From contig PWLL01000109.1 in assembly GCA_003559395.1 (NCBI GenBank), positions 1-7,284 of the forward strand: DNA of 7,284 nucleotides, given 5' to 3'. The position numbers and the translations under genes were made by a program. Positions within the stretch are counted from its first letter, which is position 1. Every line of letters starts with the position of its first letter. The notes under the pieces are model-generated. The model saw only the letters and a program-made list of their open reading frames with translations, had not been told where the DNA came from and did no database searches. Of the stretch, positions 3-7,284 are shown piece after piece. Origin of the DNA: Candidatus Iainarchaeum sp. GTDB taxonomy: Archaea; Iainarchaeota; Iainarchaeia; Iainarchaeales; CSSED10-239.

Positions 3-851
3 TTTTATAGAACAGATAACATATCATGTAATGATGATCCTGGTAGAGCAGATTGTTCTATTTTTTCAAATTATGGTTCTAAAAGCCATGGAGGTATTGG
101 TTCTGATAAAGTGATTATGTTACCAAAACCAAACTCTAGTGATATAATTGTAGAACATTTGTTAGATGGAAGTAGGCTTCCAAAAAAAATAACAATAGAA
201 GGCATTGATTTTGGTAATTCAGAAATTAAGATTGATGGATGTTATATAAACAATCTTAGTGATGAAAGCAAATCAATTTTTTCTGGGTTTTCTAATTTAA
301 CAATTTCTTCTGCAAATAATTATCATTTTTCAGATTCTGTTCAATGGAATGGTGAAGAAATAACAAATCCCGATCTTGTATTTTCTGAATCTGAAAATTG
401 TAACTTCTGTCACGCAACAGATCTAAAAGACCCTTTCTATAGAACAGACAAACCACTTTATATTTATTCAGATCTGAATGGTTATGTCTATGCTAGTATA
501 AGCTATGTAGATGAAGAAGATGAACTTCTTTATCGTGCAAAAGAAAATAACGAGAACATTCGTGAGATTCCTGGAGTTTGGGATGAAGATCTACAAATGT
601 ACAAATATGAGTTGTCTTATAATACATTAGAACCAGTTTGGGATTATTCAAAAGCTATGAATGGTTACACAAAAAATATTAATAGTAAAAGCCTTCCGTT
701 CTGGTATTCAAAAGACTATGGTCTTAGACAAGATGATAGATTGTTTTGTTATGGTCAAGAATACAGAGTTAAAGGATATATTAGAAATTACGGTGATGGC
801 GCTCAAATAAGATATTTTGATTTCCCATTTACTATATTGTTTGAAGACTAA
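3..851 (+). CDS. 5'-truncated CDS: C-terminal >=282 aa of a Cys-containing, probably secreted or surface hypothetical protein
   Basis: Frame 3 has no stop from nt 3 to TAA 849-851. The ORF track starts at GTG 111, but the 36 codons upstream are also open (FYRTDNISCNDDPGRADCSIFSNYGSKSHGGIGSDK...). My rough estimate is about a 5% chance of that in DNA this AT-rich. GGAGG at 90-94 lies 16 nt from GTG 111 and 22 nt from ATG 117, too far for a typical Shine-Dalgarno. The product has 6 Cys and several N-X-S/T sequons. Composition (N/D/E/S/Y/F-rich) matches the downstream giant protein. No family recognised. Confidence 0.7.
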   Translation, partial: FYRTDNISCNDDPGRADCSIFSNYGSKSHGGIGSDKVIMLPKPNSSDIIVEHLLDGSRLPKKITIEGIDFGNSEIKIDGCYINNLSDESKSIFSGFSNLTISSANNYHFSDSVQWNGEEITNPDLVFSESENCNFCHATDLKDPFYRTDKPLYIYSDLNGYVYASISYVDEEDELLYRAKENNENIREIPGVWDEDLQMYKYELSYNTLEPVWDYSKAMNGYTKNINSKSLPFWYSKDYGLRQDDRLFCYGQEYRVKGYIRNYGDGAQIRYFDFPFTILFED

Positions 852-869: not shown

Positions 870-3800
870 ATGCAAAAAATAAAAAAAGAAATCCTAGAAA
901 AGATATATAATCTTAAAAAAAATAAAGATAGTAAGTCTGATATAAATAAATATCTAGAAGATAATAATCTTCCTAAAGAAGCAACAGAAGAAATAAACAA
1001 AATAGATCTTAAGAAAAATACGAAAAAGAAAACACTTGCAAAAATACAAAAAAACATACAAAAAAATTTTAAAAAAACACAAGATAAAAAACCAATACTT
1101 ACTTACATAAAAACGTTCTTTATTGGAATATATTTTTTCTTTGAAAATATTTACTATTCTTTACTTGAAAAAATAAATAAAATAATTCCTATTAACAAAA
1201 TAACTGACAAAATAGATGATGTTGTTCCAAGCTTTGTTATCTTTATTTTAGTTCTGGCTTTGTTAGTTTATTTATTGTTATTTGCAAACATCTTTGTTTC
1301 TGAATATAGCTTTAGTGTAAATGTTCAAGATGAGCTAGGAAATACTCTCCCAAACGCAAACGTTTCCTTATATAGAAACGAAGAATTGCTTATTCAAAAA
1401 ACAACAGACGCTTTTGGACTAACAGATTTTTATAATATAAGAGCAAGAACAGTAACTGTAGAAATAGAAAAAGAAAAATATATTCCTAAAACAGAAGAAG
1501 TAAGACTATCAAAAGATACTTCTTTTTTAGATTTTAGACTTTCTATTGATGGAGATTTTTATCTAGAAGAATATAATACTCCTGAAAGAATAAGAACCAT
1601 TTCTTTTATAACCACAAACGATCTCGTGATTACAGAAAAACTAAACACAAACTTTATTTGTTCAAACCCATCAGTCACACCAGAACCTTCTTCAAAACAA
1701 ATAACAAATGGACGTGTTGTTGTTACTGCACCTGAAAGATGTGGTGCCTTAAGATATAATGTTACCTCAAACAACTATGAAGACAAATCCAATCAGATAG
1801 TGCCAGATAATGATAAAATATTCTTAACTAAACTAACTTCTAAAGAAAACACACATGGAGAACTTTCTTTCAAAGTTAGAGATTTAAAAGGAGAGGCGAT
1901 AACAAATACTTCTTTAACAATCTATCAACAATCAAGACCAAGTATTGCGTTTAATAATGGAATTACAGACATCTATGGTAAACACGTGTTTGAAATAGCA
2001 GAAGGTGATTATTTATTTTCTGCATCTAAACAAGACTATATATCTGTACAAAAAACAGGGCCAGTAAGTGTTTATCCAAAAGAAGTAACTAAAAAAGAGG
2101 TTTTGTTATTAACAGCAAAAGAAATAGACGAGTTTGATTGTTCTGATTCATTATATAGTGATTTTTGTATTGGTAATCATATAGATTGTACTAATGAACT
2201 TCTTAAACCATATCTTTCTTTTGATAATGATTCCTGTCAACTAGGAATCTACAAATATATAGACGTTAGCTTAAGAGATCAAGAAACACACGAGACAGTT
2301 TTTGCGGATATAAAAATATATAGAAAACCAGAAGATAGTAATATCTTTCAAGCAACTGGTCTAGAAGCAATTGATGTTAATCGTTCTGTTTTTGATGTTA
2401 TTGAAGGTCCACAATATCAAGTAAGGGTTATGAACACAGAAGAAAAAGGATATTTACGACCAAAACCAATAACTATAGAAACCTTAGACACAAACATAAC
2501 TGTTGATCTTGAATTTTCTTCAGAACTAAACAGTGGTGATATAAATGTTACTGTCTTTAATGAGCATGGCTATACTGTCTATGGCTCATCAGTATATTTA
2601 TATTATGGAGACGGAGAACATAAAGATTCTCTTTTTAACGACACACCAAAAATAACACCAAACAATGGTTTAGTAAACTTTTCTACTATTCCTTCTCAAA
2701 ATAAATACTATGCCTTTGCAATCTCAAGTGATGGTTCTTTAGAAGGCCAATCAGAAACATACATGATAGATGCAAATGAAACAACTGATTTTTCTGTAAC
2801 TTTAAAAGATAGTCCAAAAGTTCTTAATTTTAAAGCCAACACTAATGATTATGATCTTATGTTTTTTAATAGTTTAGGAGAACCAATATTTTCATATATA
2901 GAAACAGATACAGAAAACACAGGTGAAAAAAGAATTGTTTTTACAGAACGTCAACTAGATAGTGTTTATGCGTTTGTTTCTTCTTCTGCGTATGCTGGTT
3001 ATTTAACAAACGAAATAAGACTTTCATATAACAGAGAAGCAAACAAAACAATTAATTTAAAAACAACAACAGCTTGTCCTTCTGCAGATATAGAATATTT
3101 AGGTTTGTTTAACAAAAATACAAATGAAAAAATCGATCAAATTGATTTTGATGAAAATGGTTTGGATAATGATAAATATGTGTTAAGATATGTTTTTCAT
3201 TCTTGTGGTGATACAGACAATGAATATGCTTTTGTTAGAACTGGAAACAAAACACATTCAGAAGATGATGCGTTATATATTGATTCTATAAATCACTTTC
3301 CTGTATTAGAAAACCTAAACACTTTTGGCACAAGGTTTGCTGGAGAGCTTATGGAATGGGATGAAGTTCATTTTATTAATAATTATGAACTAGATCATAG
3401 TCAAAGTAGTGATGTTTCAAAATGGGTTAAGATAGATTTTACTGATTTTAGTGATTTTGATGCTAGTACTTATGAGTTTTCTGTAAATATTAACTTTAAT
3501 GATATAGGTTCACAAGATGACTATGTTTCTTATTATAGAGCCTTTTCTGCAAAGAACGAGAATTATGCTTTTGACCCATACCCAAGCAACTTTAATCCAG
3601 ATACCTGGACTATTGAAAGACCAGATTGTTTTTTCTACGCACCTACTGAAGAAAAGACCATTGATTTTGATACAGAAAATATATATGATTTTTCAATTTA
3701 TGAGAAAGATAGTCTACGTTCCGTAAGAAAATCAGGTGGATCATATGTATTCTTTTTTTCTGAAGATGAGCCTGGAGAATATGTTTTTGATCTAAATATT

Positions 3801-6800
3801 CTTTATCTTATGAAAGATAAAGTTTCAACTTTTTATTTAGGTACAGAACAAACAAATGGAAACTTGTTATATAAAAACTACAACCTGTTTGGTTTTGAAG
3901 ATGCAGAACAAACTTCAAGAAGAGATACTGGTAAAAGAGAGTCTGCTTCTGGTTTTGTTTTTGAAGATTTAAAAGAAGAGTTTACTGTAGAAGATCTTTT
4001 TGCTAAGTTTGGTAAAAGTTATAATATAAGGTCTGATTTTAAAGTAAAAGACATATTTTCAACAACTACACAACCTAATATGGTTTATAATTTTTTTGAA
4101 GATGGAGTTAAAGAAATAAATATTAGGTCTTATTATGATGGAGAGTATCAAACAATTGTGGAAACAGAAGGTTATAACAATCAAATCTATTTTGGAGAAA
4201 ATAAAGTTACGTTTAGGGTTTTAAATAACGAAAATGAACCTGTAGAAAATGTTGAAATTAAAAGAACATCTCCTTCATCAACAAGTCCTTTATGTTGTAC
4301 AGATAAAGATGGAACATGTACAAAAGACATAACTATTGATAACCACATTATAGAAAATTTTGAACAAATTGAATTTTCCTTTACTTTAACAGATGTGGGT
4401 GCACATAATAATAAGATTGGAGTTGTTAGTAAAGATTTATTTTCTGGATTTAAGATCTTAGATTCTAATAAAGAAGAAATAGATTCAGAAAATAACCTTA
4501 TATATGACGTTGTTCTTTTACATAGTGGAAGTTATGTTGTTCAAAGTAATCTAACAGAACAAGAATATTATATACAAAACTTAACTTCAAAGAAAGGTTT
4601 GCTTGAAGAAATTATATTTAATAGCCATTCACAGCTCACCCAATTTTTAGATATAGACGAAATTTCTAGAGAACTAGAATCAAATGAAGGTAATTTAAAA
4701 AGTTTTTCTAATAATGATGGTTTAAATCTTATAACCGCTCCAATAATATTTAATCTAGAACAAATTCCTACTAGTGGTTTTGATTCAGAAAATAATTTTA
4801 GAAATGTGGTAAAACTAGAACTTGAAGAAATGCAAGATGTTGTTTTGTTATTAGATGCAGATGTGATTGTTAATGTTCTTAATCTTGATATTGGAACTGG
4901 TGCAAACTATACATCACATACATATGGAGTTTATGAAACTAGAGAAAAAACAATTGGTGTTGAACTAATAAAAAACGAACTTGAAGAAATTGATATAGAA
5001 TATAATCTAAAAAACAACTCAAGTGAAAAAATAGAAATAAAAAAGATTGTGCTAGAGATAGATCAGCCAATTATTAATAAAGAAAAAATAGACATTAGTT
5101 TAGCAGAAGATTTGTTTGGTCAAACACTAGATGTTGGTGAAGCAATAGACTTTAACATACCTATTGAAGCACATTCTTCAGGAAATACAAAAGTACAAAT
5201 AAAGATTGAGTTTGTTTTTGATCCAGAAGGAGTTGCTGAAGAGTTTAGTTTGCCAATCGTTTTAGATGTTGATGTTTATAATAAAGAGAATTTATTAAAC
5301 ATCAATGTAGAATCTTTTACAGAGAATCCTATAAACTGTAACAAAGGAAACTGTAAACTACAAGGAAATTATAAAATAACAAACAATACAAAATCACATT
5401 CTTTTAGTTTAGAAAATATTTCTTATGATGCAGAGGAGTTAAATAATTTGTTTGAAGATGTTAGTTTTGAAAGAAACACAATTGTTGATAAAAACTCATC
5501 TAAACAAGTTAGTTTTACTATAGATATTGATGCTGATAAAATTGATTTTGGAGAAATTTATGAAAATAAAGATATTGATATTGAATTTTTGTTTAATCAT
5601 TCAATAAAGAATATTGAAGATGTTTCTTTTAAAAGATCTCATAATTTTACAGTATTTAATTATGAAAATATTGAAGATGTTCCTTCAATAGAAGGAGAAC
5701 TTTGTATTGGTTATGGTGGACAAGAGATAGATGGCTCTTTTATTGTTATTGGTAATTGTGAAACAGAAGAAGAGGTTTGTCAAACAGGAGAATCTGCAGT
5801 TCCAAAGATTGTTTATGATTGGGCTGATAGAGACGAAATAAAAGACTGTGTTGTTGATGATCTGGATACAGATGCAAATCTATATTGTGACTCAACACAG
5901 ATGTTAATCAACATGTTTTATGAGATTGCAGATGGTTTTGATGATTTTTATATTGACTTGATGGGAGATAGAGTTTCTAATCGTATGTTTGAGGATTTTA
6001 TAGACTGTATGTTTAGTGAAGACCCAATTTGTGATGTTTTACCAATGTTACAAGCAACTATAAAAAAACTAAATCAAGAATTTAACGATTTTATTAAAGA
6101 TGAAGAAAAAACAATAAACCTATCTAGAAACAATTACGAGCCAGGCAGATATCTTGTAAGCTTCAATGACTTTAATTTAGATGATGATCCAGATGACCTT
6201 GAAATAACCATTACTTTAAGAAAAACTATGCCAACACGTGAAAGTAATCTTTTCTATTATCTCCCAATAAATTATCTTCTGCTTAATTATGAAAATAGAG
6301 ATTATGGTTTTGATATTGGTGGTGTTTTTGGCGAGTTGATGCTAGACCCTCTTAATGGAGATACACATGTTATTAACAATCAAATAGATTCTTCTGTTGA
6401 TGATGAAAGTAATGTGCCTGTACTAAATCTAGAAGTATTTACTAACAATCTTGAAAGAGCAATAACAAGAAAAAACAACATATTATCAATTACTAAAAAT
6501 AGAGGCGAAAACCAAGATATATACAATTTTTCATATGTTCCTACGATTCCATCTATTGTTTATGCAAAATCTTCTTGTGTAGATACAAGTGATCTAGAAT
6601 ATGTTTTAGTAAATCCAGAAGAGCAAGTAGAAACAATTAATAAAGATAGCTTCTTAACCTGGACGCTAAATAACGAAGAAATAGATGATCAAAAACAAAT
6701 AGATAAGATGGGTGTTTATACAAACCACGTTTTAAAAATATCTTCAGATAGTATTCAAAATAAGCTATTAAAAACAAACGTTTATTTGCCAAAAGACTTT

Positions 6801-7163
6801 GAAAACTCAAATGATTACAAATTAACATTAGATAGACAAATGCTAGAAAATAATCCAGACTCAAACTTTTATTGGATAGAAGGTAATTCTGCAGAAGAAG
6901 GTAGAGAAATAAGTTTTGGAGAAAATACAAGAAAAGTTGATCAAGATATAATATCTAAACTAAACAACTTAACAGATTTGTTTGATCTTATAAAAGAAGA
7001 AAATTTATGTGTTTTAAATACACATAACAGCACACAAATCTACTGGGTTGAAGAAAAATTAGACTATAGCCAAGAAGAAATAAATCTTATAGAACAAAAA
7101 GCAGAAGTAGATAATATAGACTACTGTCCAAAACCTGCAGATCAAGAAGAACAAAGAAACTAG
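870..7163 (+). CDS. Giant (2,097 aa) N-terminally anchored multi-domain surface protein; hypothetical, function unknown
   Basis: Uninterrupted 6,294-nt ORF in DNA where I estimate chance stops about every 12 codons. The start is well defined: TAA at 855-857 bounds the frame upstream, and ATG 870 is the only Met codon in the first 520 codons. It ends at TAG 7161-7163. The product has a Lys-rich N-terminus, one strong hydrophobic helix (aa 120-143) and an acidic region of about 1,950 aa. All 24 Cys and all 26 N-X-S/T sequons lie C-terminal of that helix. Several segments match the carboxypeptidase-regulatory-like beta-sandwich pattern. Confidence 0.93.
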   Translation: MQKIKKEILEKIYNLKKNKDSKSDINKYLEDNNLPKEATEEINKIDLKKNTKKKTLAKIQKNIQKNFKKTQDKKPILTYIKTFFIGIYFFFENIYYSLLEKINKIIPINKITDKIDDVVPSFVIFILVLALLVYLLLFANIFVSEYSFSVNVQDELGNTLPNANVSLYRNEELLIQKTTDAFGLTDFYNIRARTVTVEIEKEKYIPKTEEVRLSKDTSFLDFRLSIDGDFYLEEYNTPERIRTISFITTNDLVITEKLNTNFICSNPSVTPEPSSKQITNGRVVVTAPERCGALRYNVTSNNYEDKSNQIVPDNDKIFLTKLTSKENTHGELSFKVRDLKGEAITNTSLTIYQQSRPSIAFNNGITDIYGKHVFEIAEGDYLFSASKQDYISVQKTGPVSVYPKEVTKKEVLLLTAKEIDEFDCSDSLYSDFCIGNHIDCTNELLKPYLSFDNDSCQLGIYKYIDVSLRDQETHETVFADIKIYRKPEDSNIFQATGLEAIDVNRSVFDVIEGPQYQVRVMNTEEKGYLRPKPITIETLDTNITVDLEFSSELNSGDINVTVFNEHGYTVYGSSVYLYYGDGEHKDSLFNDTPKITPNNGLVNFSTIPSQNKYYAFAISSDGSLEGQSETYMIDANETTDFSVTLKDSPKVLNFKANTNDYDLMFFNSLGEPIFSYIETDTENTGEKRIVFTERQLDSVYAFVSSSAYAGYLTNEIRLSYNREANKTINLKTTTACPSADIEYLGLFNKNTNEKIDQIDFDENGLDNDKYVLRYVFHSCGDTDNEYAFVRTGNKTHSEDDALYIDSINHFPVLENLNTFGTRFAGELMEWDEVHFINNYELDHSQSSDVSKWVKIDFTDFSDFDASTYEFSVNINFNDIGSQDDYVSYYRAFSAKNENYAFDPYPSNFNPDTWTIERPDCFFYAPTEEKTIDFDTENIYDFSIYEKDSLRSVRKSGGSYVFFFSEDEPGEYVFDLNILYLMKDKVSTFYLGTEQTNGNLLYKNYNLFGFEDAEQTSRRDTGKRESASGFVFEDLKEEFTVEDLFAKFGKSYNIRSDFKVKDIFSTTTQPNMVYNFFEDGVKEINIRSYYDGEYQTIVETEGYNNQIYFGENKVTFRVLNNENEPVENVEIKRTSPSSTSPLCCTDKDGTCTKDITIDNHIIENFEQIEFSFTLTDVGAHNNKIGVVSKDLFSGFKILDSNKEEIDSENNLIYDVVLLHSGSYVVQSNLTEQEYYIQNLTSKKGLLEEIIFNSHSQLTQFLDIDEISRELESNEGNLKSFSNNDGLNLITAPIIFNLEQIPTSGFDSENNFRNVVKLELEEMQDVVLLLDADVIVNVLNLDIGTGANYTSHTYGVYETREKTIGVELIKNELEEIDIEYNLKNNSSEKIEIKKIVLEIDQPIINKEKIDISLAEDLFGQTLDVGEAIDFNIPIEAHSSGNTKVQIKIEFVFDPEGVAEEFSLPIVLDVDVYNKENLLNINVESFTENPINCNKGNCKLQGNYKITNNTKSHSFSLENISYDAEELNNLFEDVSFERNTIVDKNSSKQVSFTIDIDADKIDFGEIYENKDIDIEFLFNHSIKNIEDVSFKRSHNFTVFNYENIEDVPSIEGELCIGYGGQEIDGSFIVIGNCETEEEVCQTGESAVPKIVYDWADRDEIKDCVVDDLDTDANLYCDSTQMLINMFYEIADGFDDFYIDLMGDRVSNRMFEDFIDCMFSEDPICDVLPMLQATIKKLNQEFNDFIKDEEKTINLSRNNYEPGRYLVSFNDFNLDDDPDDLEITITLRKTMPTRESNLFYYLPINYLLLNYENRDYGFDIGGVFGELMLDPLNGDTHVINNQIDSSVDDESNVPVLNLEVFTNNLERAITRKNNILSITKNRGENQDIYNFSYVPTIPSIVYAKSSCVDTSDLEYVLVNPEEQVETINKDSFLTWTLNNEEIDDQKQIDKMGVYTNHVLKISSDSIQNKLLKTNVYLPKDFENSNDYKLTLDRQMLENNPDSNFYWIEGNSAEEGREISFGENTRKVDQDIISKLNNLTDLFDLIKEENLCVLNTHNSTQIYWVEEKLDYSQEEINLIEQKAEVDNIDYCPKPADQEEQRN
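1227..1298 (+). other. Predicted signal-anchor transmembrane helix of the giant protein (aa 120-143, PSFVIFILVLALLVYLLLFANIFV)
   Basis: 24 consecutive uncharged, mostly aliphatic or aromatic residues. They follow a strongly basic segment (positive-inside rule) and precede the Cys- and sequon-rich region. No signal-peptidase-like A-x-A site is evident and the helix is 120 aa from the N-terminus, so an uncleaved type II anchor is more likely than a signal peptide. Confidence 0.75.
1308..3065 (+). other. Array of about six tandem, highly diverged carboxypeptidase-regulatory-like (CarboxypepD_reg / Ig-like) beta-sandwich domains (aa 147-732)
   Basis: The family signature recurs every ~80-95 aa: [VI]x[VF]xVxD..G..[LI]..[AT].[VL].[LI]Y ... 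TD..G...F ... G.Y.[VF]......Y. Clearest cases: aa 147-216 (VNVQDELGNTLPNANVSLY..TTDAFGLTDF..VTVEIEKEKYIP) and aa 329-405 (FKVRDLKGEAITNTSLTIY..ITDIYGKHVFEIAEGDYLFSASKQDYIS). Weaker copies lie at aa 232-322, 462-548, 556-646 and 650-732. This is pattern recognition only; no HMM was run. Confidence 0.6.
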
Positions 7164-7170
7164 TGTTTTT
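7164..7170 (+). terminator. Possible oligo-T termination signal just after the giant ORF stop
   Basis: TGTTTTT (T5 at 7166-7170) directly follows TAG 7161-7163. Oligo-T tracts act as archaeal terminators. I found no convincing GC-rich hairpin, so this is not a classical bacterial intrinsic terminator. T-runs are common in this DNA. Confidence 0.2.
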
Positions 7171-7183
7171 CAGCAACAATCAT

Positions 7184-7191
7184 TTTATAAA
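7184..7191 (+). promoter_or_regulatory. TATA-box-like element (TTTATAAA), possible archaeal-type promoter for a downstream gene
   Basis: TTTATAAA at 7184-7191 ends 27 nt before ATG 7219. With a transcription start about 26 nt downstream of the box centre, the leader would be very short or absent. Such AT-rich octamers arise easily by chance here. Confidence 0.2.
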
Positions 7192-7218
7192 CACTTTTGC
7201 TACTAAATAATATTAAAT

Positions 7219-7284
7219 ATGAATCTTATAATCTTAAACTTTTTAAAAGATATGGACTTTGTCTTAAAGATTTTCTTTTTTTTA
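7219..7284 (+). CDS. Possible 5' end of a third gene, open to the window edge (MNLIILNFLKDMDFVLKIFFFL...)
   Basis: ATG 7219 opens 22 stop-free codons to the right edge. The peptide is hydrophobic and could be a signal or TM segment. It is too short to separate from chance. Confidence 0.2.
   Translation, partial: MNLIILNFLKDMDFVLKIFFFL

What the first reader, a model, noticed from the sequence alone, without database searches (positions are those of the whole stretch)
870..7163. Giant 2,097-aa type-II-anchored surface protein, mostly unassignable: candidate host-contact or adhesion system
The sequence shows one 6.3-kb ORF with a clear layout. A polybasic cytoplasmic tail has 23 Lys in the first 74 aa. 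A single strong TM helix spans aa 120-143. An acidic ectodomain of about 1,950 aa follows. All 24 Cys and all 26 N-X-S/T sequons (my manual count) lie after the TM, and none lie in the first 163 aa. That fits an N-in/C-out topology with a disulfide-bonded, possibly glycosylated exterior. I found no HExxH, no other obvious hydrolase motif, no LPxTG and no C-terminal TM. Only about one third of the ectodomain matches a fold family I can name. Giant surface proteins are a known trait of small-celled episymbionts (DPANN archaea, CPR bacteria), where they are thought to mediate host attachment. This gene has that style, but assigning it that role is my inference.
Basis: partly seen in the sequence, partly recalled or inferred. 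Interest (0 to 1): 0.8.

Follow-up and report, generated by a model that had tools for sequence, protein, structure and literature searches.

The report
Giant anchored surface protein, DPANN archaea
This 6.3-kb gene encodes a giant protein, anchored in the membrane by its front end, of a tiny DPANN archaeon; it belongs to a large, undescribed family with a long stalk of beta-sandwich domains and a conserved 500-residue head that matches no known structure. It probably projects from the cell as part of a multi-protein surface apparatus.

Summary
The ORF is real (870..7163, 2,097 aa). The 26 sequons equal chance (26.6 ± 4.6), so they say nothing about glycosylation.

Collinear full-length orthologues exclude a chimera. 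They lie in Diapherotrites/Iainarchaeota genomes, including the complete Ca. Forterrea genome.

An exhaustive profile search found 578 protein clusters. Most of the 150 listed are 2,000-3,250 aa, and the named ones come from Diapherotrites and Micrarchaeota. They share four parts:
- a conserved ~45-aa cytoplasmic motif;
- a TM anchor;
- a stalk of transthyretin/macroglobulin-like beta-sandwiches;
- a ~500-aa head at the extreme C-terminus.

The head has no Pfam, NCBIfam or PDB relative. Its AlphaFold model (pLDDT 76, pTM 0.77) has no Foldseek match.

The gene sits in a conserved cassette: paralogous giant, secreted Gly-rich partner, this gene, then two small multi-TM proteins. The small proteins also follow the giants in distant genomes.

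Topology and taxon are supported. The host-attachment role is untested inference. Verdict: a new variant of a known kind.

The parts
870..7163 (+). Complete ORF for the 2,097-aa giant protein ('giant B' of the cassette), stop codon included
   Evidence: The identical protein, P0001, is in NCBI on a 7,284-nt contig. Orthologues P0002-P0004 are collinear over 97-99% of the length.
870..1094 (+). aa 1-75: Lys-rich cytoplasmic extension, specific to this lineage. It is a shortened version of a small N-terminal domain plus K/E-rich linker seen in the orthologues.
   Evidence: 23 K in 74 aa; the orthologue N-termini share 'EKLYxLL...KMIxDNKLPL'. In the wider family the protein starts directly at the next motif.
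1095..1226 (+). aa 76-119: family-wide conserved juxtamembrane motif, here FFIGIYFFFENIYYSLLEKINKIIPINKITDKIDDVVPSF. The family consensus is GLKDIYFSLEDKYYSLLDKIDKKIPVYKIIDPIDKVVPSF.
   Evidence: conserved columns; 83 of 105 representatives of at least 1,900 aa carry it, at residue ~1..
1227..1298 (+). aa 120-143: single transmembrane helix (signal anchor, N-terminus inside, C-terminus outside)
   Evidence: Kyte-Doolittle peak 3.06; the flanks follow the positive-inside rule across 111 family members.
1299..5636 (+). aa 144-1589: acidic extracellular stalk, mostly beta-sandwich modules in a fixed order conserved among orthologues
1308..1550 (+). aa 147-227: transthyretin-like (CarboxypepD_reg) beta-sandwich 1
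   Evidence: Pfam PF13620, E 1.8e-9. Present in 11 of 11 orthologues. Iterated HMM.
1860..2117 (+). aa 331-416: CarboxypepD_reg-like beta-sandwich 2
   Evidence: Iterated HMM, domain E 7e-21
2118..2249 (+). aa 417-460: small four-Cys module (C424, C433, C440, C456), conserved
   Evidence: these Cys are conserved in 82-91% of 11 orthologues
2538..2813 (+). aa 557-648: CarboxypepD_reg-like beta-sandwich 3
   Evidence: Iterated HMM, domain E 3e-24
4167..4439 (+). aa ~1100-1190: Big_1 / macroglobulin-like Ig domain
   Evidence: Pfam Big_1, sub-threshold at E 3e-6, found in 8 of 11 orthologues. The AlphaFold tile has 10-residue block pLDDT means of 76-82 here.
4929..5339 (+). aa ~1354-1490: beta-sandwich predicted with confidence, ending at the conserved pair C1490/C1495
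   Evidence: 10-residue block pLDDT means are mostly 70-86 for tile residues 265-400..
5637..7160 (+). aa ~1590-2097: conserved C-terminal head module, a new domain family. Family-wide invariant residues are C1630, W1651, C1660, C1673-D1674-x-x-Q1677, D1700, D1709, G1759, P1799, Y1812-G1813, W1931, C2047 and W2059.
   Evidence: 578 representative proteins match this part; the module always ends at the C-terminus.. AlphaFold pLDDT 76.4, pTM 0.77. No Pfam, NCBIfam, PDB or Foldseek relative.
3..851 (+). C-terminal 283 aa of the upstream partner gene F1. F1 is a ~700-890-aa secreted, Cys-rich protein with a Gly-rich repeat region. The ORF runs off the left end of the window and stops 19 nt before the giant's ATG.
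   Evidence: 44% identity to the C-terminus of L001 7300-9981..
7219..7284 (+). First 22 codons (MNLIILNFLKDMDFVLKIFFFL) of the downstream small multi-TM protein F2, cut by the end of the contig
   Evidence: aligns with the F2 N-termini of 8 loci

Best explanation
The gene encodes a giant 'stalk-and-head' cell-surface protein of a Diapherotrites/Iainarchaeota (DPANN) archaeon.

Shown:
- The protein has a short cytoplasmic N-terminus. This is a lineage-specific Lys-rich extension followed by a ~45-aa motif conserved across the whole family.
- It has one TM helix that serves as an uncleaved signal anchor.
- It has an acidic ~1,450-aa stalk of beta-sandwich modules. These are transthyretin/CarboxypepD_reg-like, macroglobulin/Big_1-like and family-specific, and several hold conserved Cys pairs.
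- It ends in a ~500-aa compact head at the extreme C-terminus. The head is the signature of a family of at least 578 protein clusters and has no known sequence or fold relative.
- It is co-encoded, 19 nt and 55 nt from its neighbours, with a paralogous giant, a secreted Gly-rich partner (F1) and two small paralogous multi-TM proteins (F2, F3). F2 and F3 also follow the giants in distant genomes.

Inferred:
- The small membrane proteins and the conserved juxtamembrane motif form the membrane base.
- The stalk holds the head tens of nanometres from the membrane, beyond a conventional S-layer.
- The head, with its invariant Asp, Gln, Arg, Tyr and Trp residues, is the interaction site with something outside the cell. 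That target could be a host or neighbour cell envelope, or a matrix glycan.
- F1 is an accessory or tip component.

The protein therefore probably works as a long-reach contact or tethering structure of an ultra-small cell.
For: - ORF and layout.
- Orientation: the positive-inside bias holds across 111 family members. In most members the motif before the TM is charged and starts at residue 1, so it is not a second TM.
- Extracellular features: Cys is highly conserved and paired. Only secreted-type beta-sandwich domains are found, in 11 orthologues and 19 distant members, and no enzyme domains.
- Family and head.
- Head model: pLDDT 76.4, pTM 0.77.
- Cassette. F2 and F3 are conserved next to the giants in L012, L016 and L018. 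Giants occur in tandem, 3-4 per locus.
- Taxonomy. The HisRS beside the closest long-contig orthologue is 62% identical to that of Forterrea.
- Literature: for Ca. [quoted passage not shown] A conventional 1,039-aa S-layer protein has been assigned to Iainarchaeota (bioRxiv 10.1101/2024.05.28.596244). The giants are therefore something additional.
Against: - There is no expression, localisation or binding data.
- No dedicated topology or signal-peptide predictor was available.
- The head is the conserved part of the family, not a hypervariable tip, and the domain order is fixed. A host-specific adhesin would more likely vary at its tip.
- There are no DNA repeats or signs of a diversity-generating element.
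- The family also occurs in a 1.2-Mb genome that encodes mevalonate-pathway, aspartate-pathway and PPDK genes, so that organism may be free-living.
- The cassette is syntenic with housekeeping genes rather than lying in an island.
- The extended stalk geometry is assumed. The AlphaFold model of aa 1090-2097 was poor overall (pLDDT 45).
Confidence: 0.55

Rival explanations
1. Constitutive envelope scaffold. The giants, F1 and the small membrane proteins build a self-directed cell-wall structure, such as struts or a canopy spanning a pseudo-periplasm. It would be anchored at the membrane and joined head-to-head or head-to-S-layer, as in tetrabrachion or SlaB/SlaA. No role in host contact is implied.
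For: - The domain order is fixed and collinear, and the head is conserved across two phyla.
- The cassette is syntenic with HU, HisRS and AlaRS in at least 7 genomes.
- There are 2-4 paralogues per locus, taking up about 30 kb in L012.
- The family is present in a metabolically richer genome.
- Only structural domains are found.
Against: - A separate 1,039-aa S-layer protein has been predicted for Iainarchaeota.
- There is no S-layer-type Pfam domain, no C-terminal anchor and no PGF-CTERM.
- Nothing here shows lattice formation.
- The middle and distal stalk (aa 1000-1600) is the least conserved part, which is unusual for a lattice strut.
Confidence: 0.25
2. An alpha-2-macroglobulin-like trap or defence protein. 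On this reading it is a membrane-anchored array of macroglobulin domains that captures foreign proteases or other attackers. It would be encoded with membrane partners, as bacterial MagD/YfaS are in the mag/yfa operons (own knowledge).
For: - Sub-threshold Pfam hits to bMG3, MG4 and MG2 recur through the family. bMG3 appears in 16 of 19 distant members.
- The low-confidence stalk model retrieves TEP1r, C3, C5 and alpha-2-macroglobulin among multi-beta-sandwich proteins.
- The size, the N-terminal membrane anchoring and an operon with small membrane proteins all resemble the MagD system.
- An invariant Cys and Gln lie close together in the head (C1673...Q1677).
Against: - The window protein has no CxEQ, and the motif is incidental in the family (9 of 167).
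- No A2M, TED, A2M_recep or CUB Pfam hit appears in the window protein, 11 orthologues or 19 distant members.
- The head model has no Foldseek match to any A2M or complement structure (best E 0.03, TM at most 0.12).
- The head is mostly beta with few helices, not an alpha/alpha toroid.
- The MG hits overlap generic CarboxypepD_reg matches.
- The one search matches come from a model with mean pLDDT 45.
Confidence: 0.07
3. A two-helix hairpin topology, in which the aromatic segment aa 82-99 is a first TM and the 1,950-aa bulk lies in the cytoplasm.
For: aa 82-99 (TFFIGIYFFFENIYYSLL) is moderately hydrophobic, with a Kyte-Doolittle value of about 1.3.
Against: - The homologous segment in most family members is charged (GLKDIYFSLEDKYYSLLDK) and starts at residue 1.
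- The loop before the main TM is richer in K+R than the segment after it.
- Conserved Cys pairs and secreted-type beta-sandwich domains fill the bulk.
- Short family members carry the head behind a classical N-terminal signal peptide.
Confidence: 0.03
4. An assembly artefact or a spurious long ORF in AT-rich DNA.
For: The contig is short (7,284 nt) with 21-32% G+C in 500-nt windows, and no coverage data are available.
Against: AT-rich DNA is rich in stop codons, so a chance ORF of 6.3 kb is not expected. Three full-length orthologues at 31-48% identity cover 97-99% of the protein collinearly. Seven further full-length orthologues lie in independent assemblies, including a curated complete genome. 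Both neighbouring genes are syntenic.
Confidence: 0.02

Closest known systems
Generic 'large extracellular proteins' of DPANN archaea, as noted for Ca. Forterrea multitransposorum (PMC5905446) and the large surface proteins of Ca. Mancarchaeum Mia14 (PMC5498576)
   Same: A giant, acidic, Ig-like-rich surface protein in an ultra-small archaeon. An orthologue of this gene lies in the Forterrea genome. [quoted passage not shown]
   Different: Those papers give no family definition, domain analysis or gene-cluster description. The Mia14 proteins are described with PKD, beta-propeller and CARDB domains, which are not found here.
Bacterial alpha-2-macroglobulin-like proteins in multi-gene operons (P. 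aeruginosa MagD / E. coli YfaS; own knowledge, not tested against sequences here)
   Same: About 1,500-2,000 aa, held at the cytoplasmic membrane by the N-terminus. A long array of macroglobulin-type beta-sandwiches. Encoded with several small proteins of unknown function that associate with the membrane.
   Different: There are no A2M, TED, CUB or receptor-binding domains and no CxEQ. The head has a different fold with no match. The organism is an archaeon and the anchor is a TM helix, not a lipobox.
Archaeal S-layer stalk systems (Sulfolobales SlaB/SlaA; Staphylothermus tetrabrachion; own knowledge, plus bioRxiv 10.1101/2023.10.27.564410 for SlaA/SlaB features)
   Same: A membrane-anchored elongated protein of Ig-like domains that projects a distal assembly. 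It is co-encoded with a partner secreted protein.
   Different: Those proteins are anchored by a C-terminal TM or a coiled-coil stalk, whereas this one has an N-terminal anchor. There is no sequence or Pfam relationship. Iainarchaeota have a separately predicted S-layer protein.
Gram-positive MSCRAMM/pilin-type adhesins built from prealbumin-like domains (SdrD_B, SpaA)
   Same: Stalks of transthyretin/prealbumin-like beta-sandwiches. SpaA and SdrD_B Pfam hits occur in family members. A binding module is held at the end far from the anchor.
   Different: The polarity is opposite: those adhesins carry a C-terminal LPXTG anchor and an N-terminal binding head. This protein has no LPXTG, and no signs of isopeptide or sortase machinery were seen.
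SPEARE giant proteins of Nanohaloarchaeota (own knowledge)
   Same: A giant DPANN protein proposed to mediate host interaction.
   Different: SPEARE proteins carry serine-protease, adhesion and restriction-endonuclease domains. No enzyme domain is detectable here.
Extended signal peptide regions (ESPR) of very large autotransporters and TpsA proteins (own knowledge); an analogy for the N-terminal motif only
   Same: A conserved N-terminal extension directly in front of the hydrophobic export segment, found specifically in very large exported proteins.
   Different: There is no sequence similarity. Here the hydrophobic segment seems to stay as an anchor, and no small-x-small cleavage site was noticed by eye. 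The function of the motif is unknown.

Membership tests
Undescribed DPANN giant-protein family defined here (N-motif + TM + beta-sandwich stalk + C-terminal head) | C-terminal ~480-690-aa head module ending at the last residues of the protein | tested here: met
   Window aa ~1590-2097. The profile search gives 578 representatives at E<=1e-3 and 479 at E<=1e-10. The module ends a median of 1 residue from the C-terminus. The window protein scores E 5e-107 against the A6 profile, which includes the window sequence itself.
Undescribed DPANN giant-protein family defined here (N-motif + TM + beta-sandwich stalk + C-terminal head) | Conserved juxtamembrane motif (...YYxLEDKYYxxLDxxxxxIPVYKxIDPIDKxxPSF) immediately before a single TM helix | tested here: met
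   Window aa 82-142 match the motif HMM at E 4e-22. 83 of 105 long representatives carry the motif.
Undescribed DPANN giant-protein family defined here (N-motif + TM + beta-sandwich stalk + C-terminal head) | Invariant head residues, including Y-C-D-x-T-Q, D1700, D1709, Y-G (1812-1813), W1931 and C2047 | tested here: met
   All are present in the window protein. They are conserved in 97-100% of 95 aligned modules.
Undescribed DPANN giant-protein family defined here (N-motif + TM + beta-sandwich stalk + C-terminal head) | Cassette context: partner F1 upstream and small multi-TM proteins F2/F3 downstream | tested here: met
   Window 3..851 is the F1 C-terminus (44% identity). Window 7219..7284 is the F2 start. 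F3 and giant A lie beyond the ends of the contig, so they cannot be seen.
Alpha-2-macroglobulin / thioester-containing protein family | Thioester motif CxEQ in a TED domain | tested here: not met
   The window protein has no CxEQ, and only 9 of 167 family proteins have one, incidentally.
Alpha-2-macroglobulin / thioester-containing protein family | A2M, TED, A2M_recep or CUB domains detectable by Pfam | tested here: not met
   Only sub-threshold bMG3 and MG4 hits, which overlap CarboxypepD_reg. No A2M, TED or receptor-domain hit appears in the window protein, 11 orthologues or 19 distant members.
Alpha-2-macroglobulin / thioester-containing protein family | C-terminal region with the CUB-TED-MG8 fold | tested here: not met
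   Foldseek of the head model (pTM 0.77) against the PDB gives a best E of 0.03 and TM at most 0.12, with no A2M or complement entry among the listed matches.
Alpha-2-macroglobulin / thioester-containing protein family | Protease bait region and conformational trapping | not testable with these tools
   This needs biochemistry.
Archaeal S-layer proteins (SlaA/SlaB, MSTP-like, halobacterial csg) | S-layer-type domains, or a C-terminal TM or PGF-CTERM anchor | tested here: not met
   No such Pfam or NCBIfam hit. There is no PGF motif and no C-terminal hydrophobic segment.
Archaeal S-layer proteins (SlaA/SlaB, MSTP-like, halobacterial csg) | Forms a 2-D lattice and is among the most abundant proteins | not testable with these tools
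   No expression or imaging data. A different 1,039-aa protein is the predicted S-layer protein of Iainarchaeota.
LPXTG-anchored MSCRAMM adhesins | C-terminal LPXTG sorting signal followed by a hydrophobic tail | tested here: not met
   No LPxTG.
SPEARE proteins (Nanohaloarchaeota) | Serine-protease and restriction-endonuclease domains in a giant protein | tested here: not met
   Pfam finds no enzyme domains.

The most novel reading that the evidence does not exclude
On this reading the window shows one component of an undescribed multi-protein envelope apparatus shared by Iainarchaeota and Micrarchaeota.

Its parts would be:
- two to four giant stalk proteins that carry a head with a new fold;
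- a secreted Gly-rich partner;
- a membrane platform of small three-TM paralogues that dock the giants' conserved juxtamembrane motif.

The head would use its invariant Cys-Asp-x-x-Gln / Asp / Trp site for a specific chemistry on the partner cell. That could be glycan binding or a covalent capture of the thioester type. This would make it the long-sought attachment device of these DPANN lineages.
Probability: 0.15. Interest if true: 0.85.

Novelty: new variant of a known kind. Interest (0 to 1): 0.58.

Why it matters
How ultra-small DPANN archaea hold on to other cells, and what their envelopes are made of, is largely unknown outside a few cultivated Nanobdellota and Nanohaloarchaeota.

This gene leads to a concrete, searchable family of at least 578 clusters at 50% identity. 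The named members come from two phyla. The family has three defining features that can each be tested:
- a cytoplasmic motif next to the membrane anchor;
- a head domain with no known relative, small enough (about 500 aa) to express and solve;
- a conserved set of co-encoded small membrane proteins.

These loci take up roughly 13-30 kb in genomes of about 0.8-1.2 Mb, so the cells invest heavily in them.

Micrarchaeota have cultivated members. If the family is present in them, its localisation and role could be tested directly.

If the role is only structural, the family is still a new class of archaeal envelope protein and a new domain for the databases.

Tried and rejected
- Word-indexed protein searches with alignments. 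These added almost nothing, because only the 8,000 candidates sharing most words were scored. The exhaustive profile search was what revealed the family.
- AlphaFold on aa 1090-2097 with a 7-sequence alignment. Mean pLDDT was 45 and only two beta-sandwiches were confident. Its Foldseek matches are only a weak hint of macroglobulin/PapD-like arrays.
- PDB sequence-profile searches. The N-terminal half, the C-terminal half and the head found nothing significant. F1 gave only a weak Obg Gly-rich match.
- Foldseek of the head against the PDB and against viral models found no match.
- NCBIfam found nothing beyond one weak sub-threshold hit for a distant relative (P0129), and Pfam found nothing for the neighbours F1, F2, F3 and the small signal-peptide protein.
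- Thioester or alpha-2-macroglobulin membership was rejected.
- S-layer protein identity is not supported.
- Recent internal duplication or a diversity-generating target. No meaningful DNA repeats were found.
- RNA genes in the window. None were found.
- A relationship between the head and the F1 C-terminal domain. None was found (hhalign probability 0.1%).
- Sequon enrichment as evidence of glycosylation was rejected, because the count is at chance.
- Two Pfam calls failed on size limits.

Full report
**1. The observation**

The window holds one 6,294-nt ORF, 870..7163 on the + strand, encoding 2,097 aa from an ATG start.
- The first 74 residues hold 23 Lys and no Arg.
- There is a single strong hydrophobic segment, with a Kyte-Doolittle 19-residue peak of 3.06 at aa ~120-143.
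- There are 24 Cys, the first at aa 264.
- There are 26 N-x-S/T sequons, the first at aa 164.
- The region after the TM has a net charge of -189.
- HExxH, LPxTG, PGF, GxSxG and CxEQ are absent, and there is no C-terminal hydrophobic segment.

- The 26 sequons equal the number expected from composition (26.6 ± 4.6 in shuffles). Their absence from the first 163 aa has P~0.12. They carry no information about glycosylation.
- The Cys-free N-terminus is only marginal (P~0.04). The real argument for disulfides is conservation. 18 of 24 Cys are invariant among the four closest proteins. After Trp, Cys is the best-conserved residue type across 11 orthologues (0.68 against about 0.34 overall).

**2. 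A real gene, and its organism**

The identical protein is on record from a 7,284-nt NCBI contig. Three full-length relatives (48%, 46% and 31% identity) align collinearly over 97-99% of the length.

A scan of one genome per species found more full-length orthologues (26-30% identity in the best segment). These came from 'Candidatus Diapherotrites', 'Candidatus Iainarchaeum', several unnamed archaeal MAGs, and the complete genome of Candidatus Forterrea multitransposorum, CP045477.1.

The closest orthologue on a long contig (L001) sits next to archaeal-type genes, including an ATP-dependent DNA ligase and a ProRS with the ProRS-C_1 domain. Its HisRS is 62% identical to that of Forterrea.

Chimerism is effectively excluded, although coverage could not be checked.

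**3. Anatomy**

*Cytoplasmic end.* The Lys-rich tail is not a family feature. In the orthologues it corresponds to a small conserved N-terminal segment ('EKLYxLL...KMIxDNKLPL') followed by a K/E-rich linker of variable length. The window protein has a shortened version.

What is conserved is the next ~45 residues. Here they read FFIGIYFFFENIYYSLLEKINKIIPINKITDKIDDVVPSF, directly before the TM helix. In the wider family this motif has the consensus GLKDIYFSLEDKYYSLLDKIDKKIPVYKIIDPIDKVVPSF. It starts at residue 1 in 83 of 105 representatives of at least 1,900 aa. Because it is charged there, the aromatic version here is unlikely to be a second TM.

*Orientation.* Over 111 family members, K+R averages 2.15 in the 15 residues before the TM and 0.77 after it. 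This fits an orientation with the N-terminus inside and the C-terminus outside. I noticed no small-x-small cleavage site after the helix by eye, but no signal-peptide predictor was available.

*Stalk (aa 144-1589).*
- Pfam names only a CarboxypepD_reg domain (aa 149-224, E 1.8e-9) and a sub-threshold Big_1 match (aa 1110-1155).
- An iterated HMM finds three CarboxypepD_reg-like domains, at aa 147-227, 331-416 and 557-648.
- Across 11 orthologues and 19 distant members, the only families hit are beta-sandwich types: CarboxypepD_reg, Big_1, bMG3, MG4, SpaA, SdrD_B and Ig_DR_A0283-like. No enzyme domain appears.
- AlphaFold on aa 1090-2097 with a shallow alignment was poor overall (pLDDT 45). It did give two confident beta-sandwiches, at aa ~1110-1190 and ~1354-1490.
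- Foldseek matches for that model are other multi-beta-sandwich proteins, including TEP1r, complement C3 and C5, PapD/ASH arrays and pilins. This is only a hint, given the model quality.
- There are no DNA-level repeats, so the array is old and each domain is individual. The domain order is collinear even with distant paralogues.

*Head (aa ~1590-2097).* This is the key result. An exhaustive HMMER search of 1.84 billion representative proteins, using a profile of aa 1090-2097, found 578 proteins at E<=1e-3 and 479 at E<=1e-10.
- Most of the 150 listed are 2,000-3,250 aa long. For most of them the match is to the last ~460 profile positions, at their extreme C-terminus.
- The module is 480-690 aa long and ends a median of 1 residue from the protein's end.
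- Some complete 760-990-aa proteins carry only a signal peptide, a short N-terminal part and the head. This independently shows that the head is exported.
- Family-wide invariant residues are C1630, W1651, C1660, the motif Y-C1673-D1674-x-T-Q1677, D1700, D1709, G1759, P1799, Y1812-G1813, W1931, C2047 and W2059.
- The head has no Pfam or NCBIfam family and no PDB sequence relative at E<=10.
- With a 27-sequence alignment, AlphaFold gives a compact mixed model. It has a small helical sub-domain, beta-sandwich parts and an alpha/beta C-terminal cap, with mean pLDDT 76.4, pTM 0.77 and 143 residues above 90.
- Foldseek finds nothing similar in the PDB (best E 0.03, TM at most 0.12) or in viral models. 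AlphaFold DB could not be searched.

**4. Genomic context**

In the Iainarchaeota loci that hold an orthologue, the gene order is largely conserved: giant A, a small signal-peptide protein, F1, giant B (this gene), F2, F3, HU, HisRS.
- Giant A is a paralogue with the same head, sometimes split into two genes.
- The small signal-peptide protein is ~130-220 aa.
- F1 is ~700-890 aa, with a signal peptide, a Gly-rich 'SGxGGxGG' repeat region and a Cys-rich C-terminal domain.
- F2 is ~120 aa with about 3 TM helices, and F3 is ~115 aa with 3-4.

The window shows the same arrangement. Positions 3..851 encode the C-terminal 283 aa of F1 (44% identity), and the ORF stops 19 nt before the giant's ATG. 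Positions 7219..7284 encode the first 22 residues of F2, which starts 55 nt after the stop.

Two loci carry an extra F1-giant pair.

In more distant genomes (L012, L016, L018; 37% G+C in L012, against 27-31% in L001 and L002), three or four giants lie in tandem. They are followed by clear F2 and F3 homologues plus two to four further small multi-TM proteins. One distant member stands alone.

In a Micrarchaeota contig, and in a 1.2-Mb genome that also encodes mevalonate-pathway, aspartate-pathway and PPDK genes, the giant is split into two or three consecutive genes.

F1, F2, F3 and the small protein have no Pfam or NCBIfam family. F1 is unrelated to the head.

**5. How it most likely works**

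Shown: the protein is an N-terminally anchored, exported, acidic giant, built as a fixed series of beta-sandwich modules that ends in a conserved globular head. It is encoded together with a paralogue, a secreted partner and small polytopic membrane proteins that co-occur with giants across the family.

Inferred:
- The small membrane proteins and the conserved juxtamembrane motif form the membrane base, or a dedicated insertion platform.
- The roughly 15 stalk modules hold the head tens of nanometres out.
- The head, with its invariant acidic, amide and aromatic residues, is the interaction surface.
- F1 is an accessory or tip component.

A conventional 1,039-aa S-layer protein has been predicted for Iainarchaeota (bioRxiv 10.1101/2024.05.28.596244). 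The giants are therefore probably an additional, longer-reaching structure. Contact with another cell or surface is the reading I favour (0.55). It agrees with what the authors of the Forterrea genome proposed in general terms for 'large extracellular proteins' (PMC5905446).

The main rival (0.25) is a self-directed envelope scaffold. It is favoured by the conserved head, the fixed architecture, the housekeeping synteny and the presence in a possibly free-living genome.

An alpha-2-macroglobulin-like trap (0.07) is suggested by the recurrent sub-threshold MG hits and by the analogy with the MagD/YfaS operons (own knowledge). It fails the membership tests: no CxEQ, no A2M, TED or CUB domains, and no fold match for the head.

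A cytoplasmic bulk (0.03) and an artefact (0.02) are unlikely.

**6. Comparison with what is known, and novelty**

Giant surface proteins are a recognised trait of DPANN and CPR organisms, and an orthologue's genome paper already mentions them generically. What I did not find in Pfam, NCBIfam, the PDB or the searchable literature is this family itself. That covers the N-terminal motif, the head domain and the cassette with small multi-TM proteins.

I therefore rate it a new variant of a known kind, not categorically new.

The most novel reading that is not excluded is a dedicated multi-protein attachment apparatus whose head performs a specific chemistry at the invariant C-D-x-x-Q site. I give this a probability of about 0.15.

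**7. Limits**

No expression, abundance, coverage or localisation data were available. No dedicated topology predictor was available. AlphaFold DB could not be searched by fold, and model coordinates could not be inspected, so disulfide pairing and clustering of the invariant residues are untested.

Only about 20 family members carried organism names. The statement 'Diapherotrites and Micrarchaeota' rests on those names and on the archaeal gene contexts.

Noticed in passing
window 3..851 (+); full-length copies at L001 7300-9981, L005 7359-9776 and others: The upstream partner F1 has a central Gly-rich repeat region ('SGxGGxGGxxG...NxG', alignment A8). Its only weak similarity is to the Gly-rich N-terminal fold of Obg GTPases (PDB E~0.06; Pfam GTP1_OBG in 1 of 11 members). 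This might indicate a polyglycine-II or beta-solenoid structure. The window holds only its Cys-rich C-terminal domain.
   Followed up: partly
window 7219..7284 (+); L012 24762-26915, L016 27422-29060, L018 18166-21148: F2 and F3 are small three- to four-TM paralogues. They follow the last giant gene even in distant genomes, together with 2-4 further small multi-TM proteins. No Pfam or NCBIfam family matches them. They could form an oligomeric membrane platform.
   Followed up: partly
L001 1-6843; L013 2721-9808; L014 3866-12364: Family members can be split into two or three consecutive genes. The N-terminal piece keeps the motif and TM, while the C-terminal piece carries the head behind its own hydrophobic N-terminus or signal peptide. 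This suggests that the stalk and head can work as separate chains.
   Followed up: partly
L012 535-2265 and L016 1-1407: In L012 the first gene of the large distant cluster (576 aa) begins 'NEKAFNLFTALLSFILIILTVLL'. This looks like a class III (type IV pilin-like) signal. L016 has a similar-sized first gene (594 aa) whose N-terminus lies outside the fetched locus. Not tested.
   Followed up: no
L018 1-8267: One distant giant (2,982 aa) carries a CAP domain (PF00188, cysteine-rich secretory protein family) in addition to the beta-sandwich domains. This was the only non-beta-sandwich Pfam domain seen in any family member.
   Followed up: no
L001 10001-10700 (P0003 N-terminus): The closest long-contig orthologue replaces the Lys-rich tail with about three extra TM segments. 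One of the 11 orthologues hits Pfam DUF5684, and I infer it is this one. The called start codon might also be too far upstream.
   Followed up: no
window aa 1673-1677 (nt 5886-5900): The motif Y-C-D-x-T-Q is invariant across the family, and 159 of 167 proteins have CDxxQ. The close Cys and Gln recall the CGEQ thioester of complement and alpha-2-macroglobulin, but with different spacing and in a different fold. C1673 may simply pair with the invariant C2047.
   Followed up: partly
window 7164-7218: A T5 run (TGTTTTTC) lies directly after the TAG stop. It is followed by a 55-nt AT-rich spacer before the F2 start. This may be an archaeal oligo-T terminator or attenuator between the giant and the small membrane genes.
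   Followed up: no
window 3000-6000: The coding strand shows a sustained positive GC skew (up to 0.44 at 5501-6000) in the distal half of the gene, but not in the first 2 kb. The cause is unknown.
   Followed up: no
L008 ~1970-2170: The orthologue in L008 has a masked run (X/N) inside a repeated 'NNPQTTSDKTEKPKKG' N-terminal segment. The cytoplasmic extension can therefore contain tandem repeats in some lineages.
   Followed up: no
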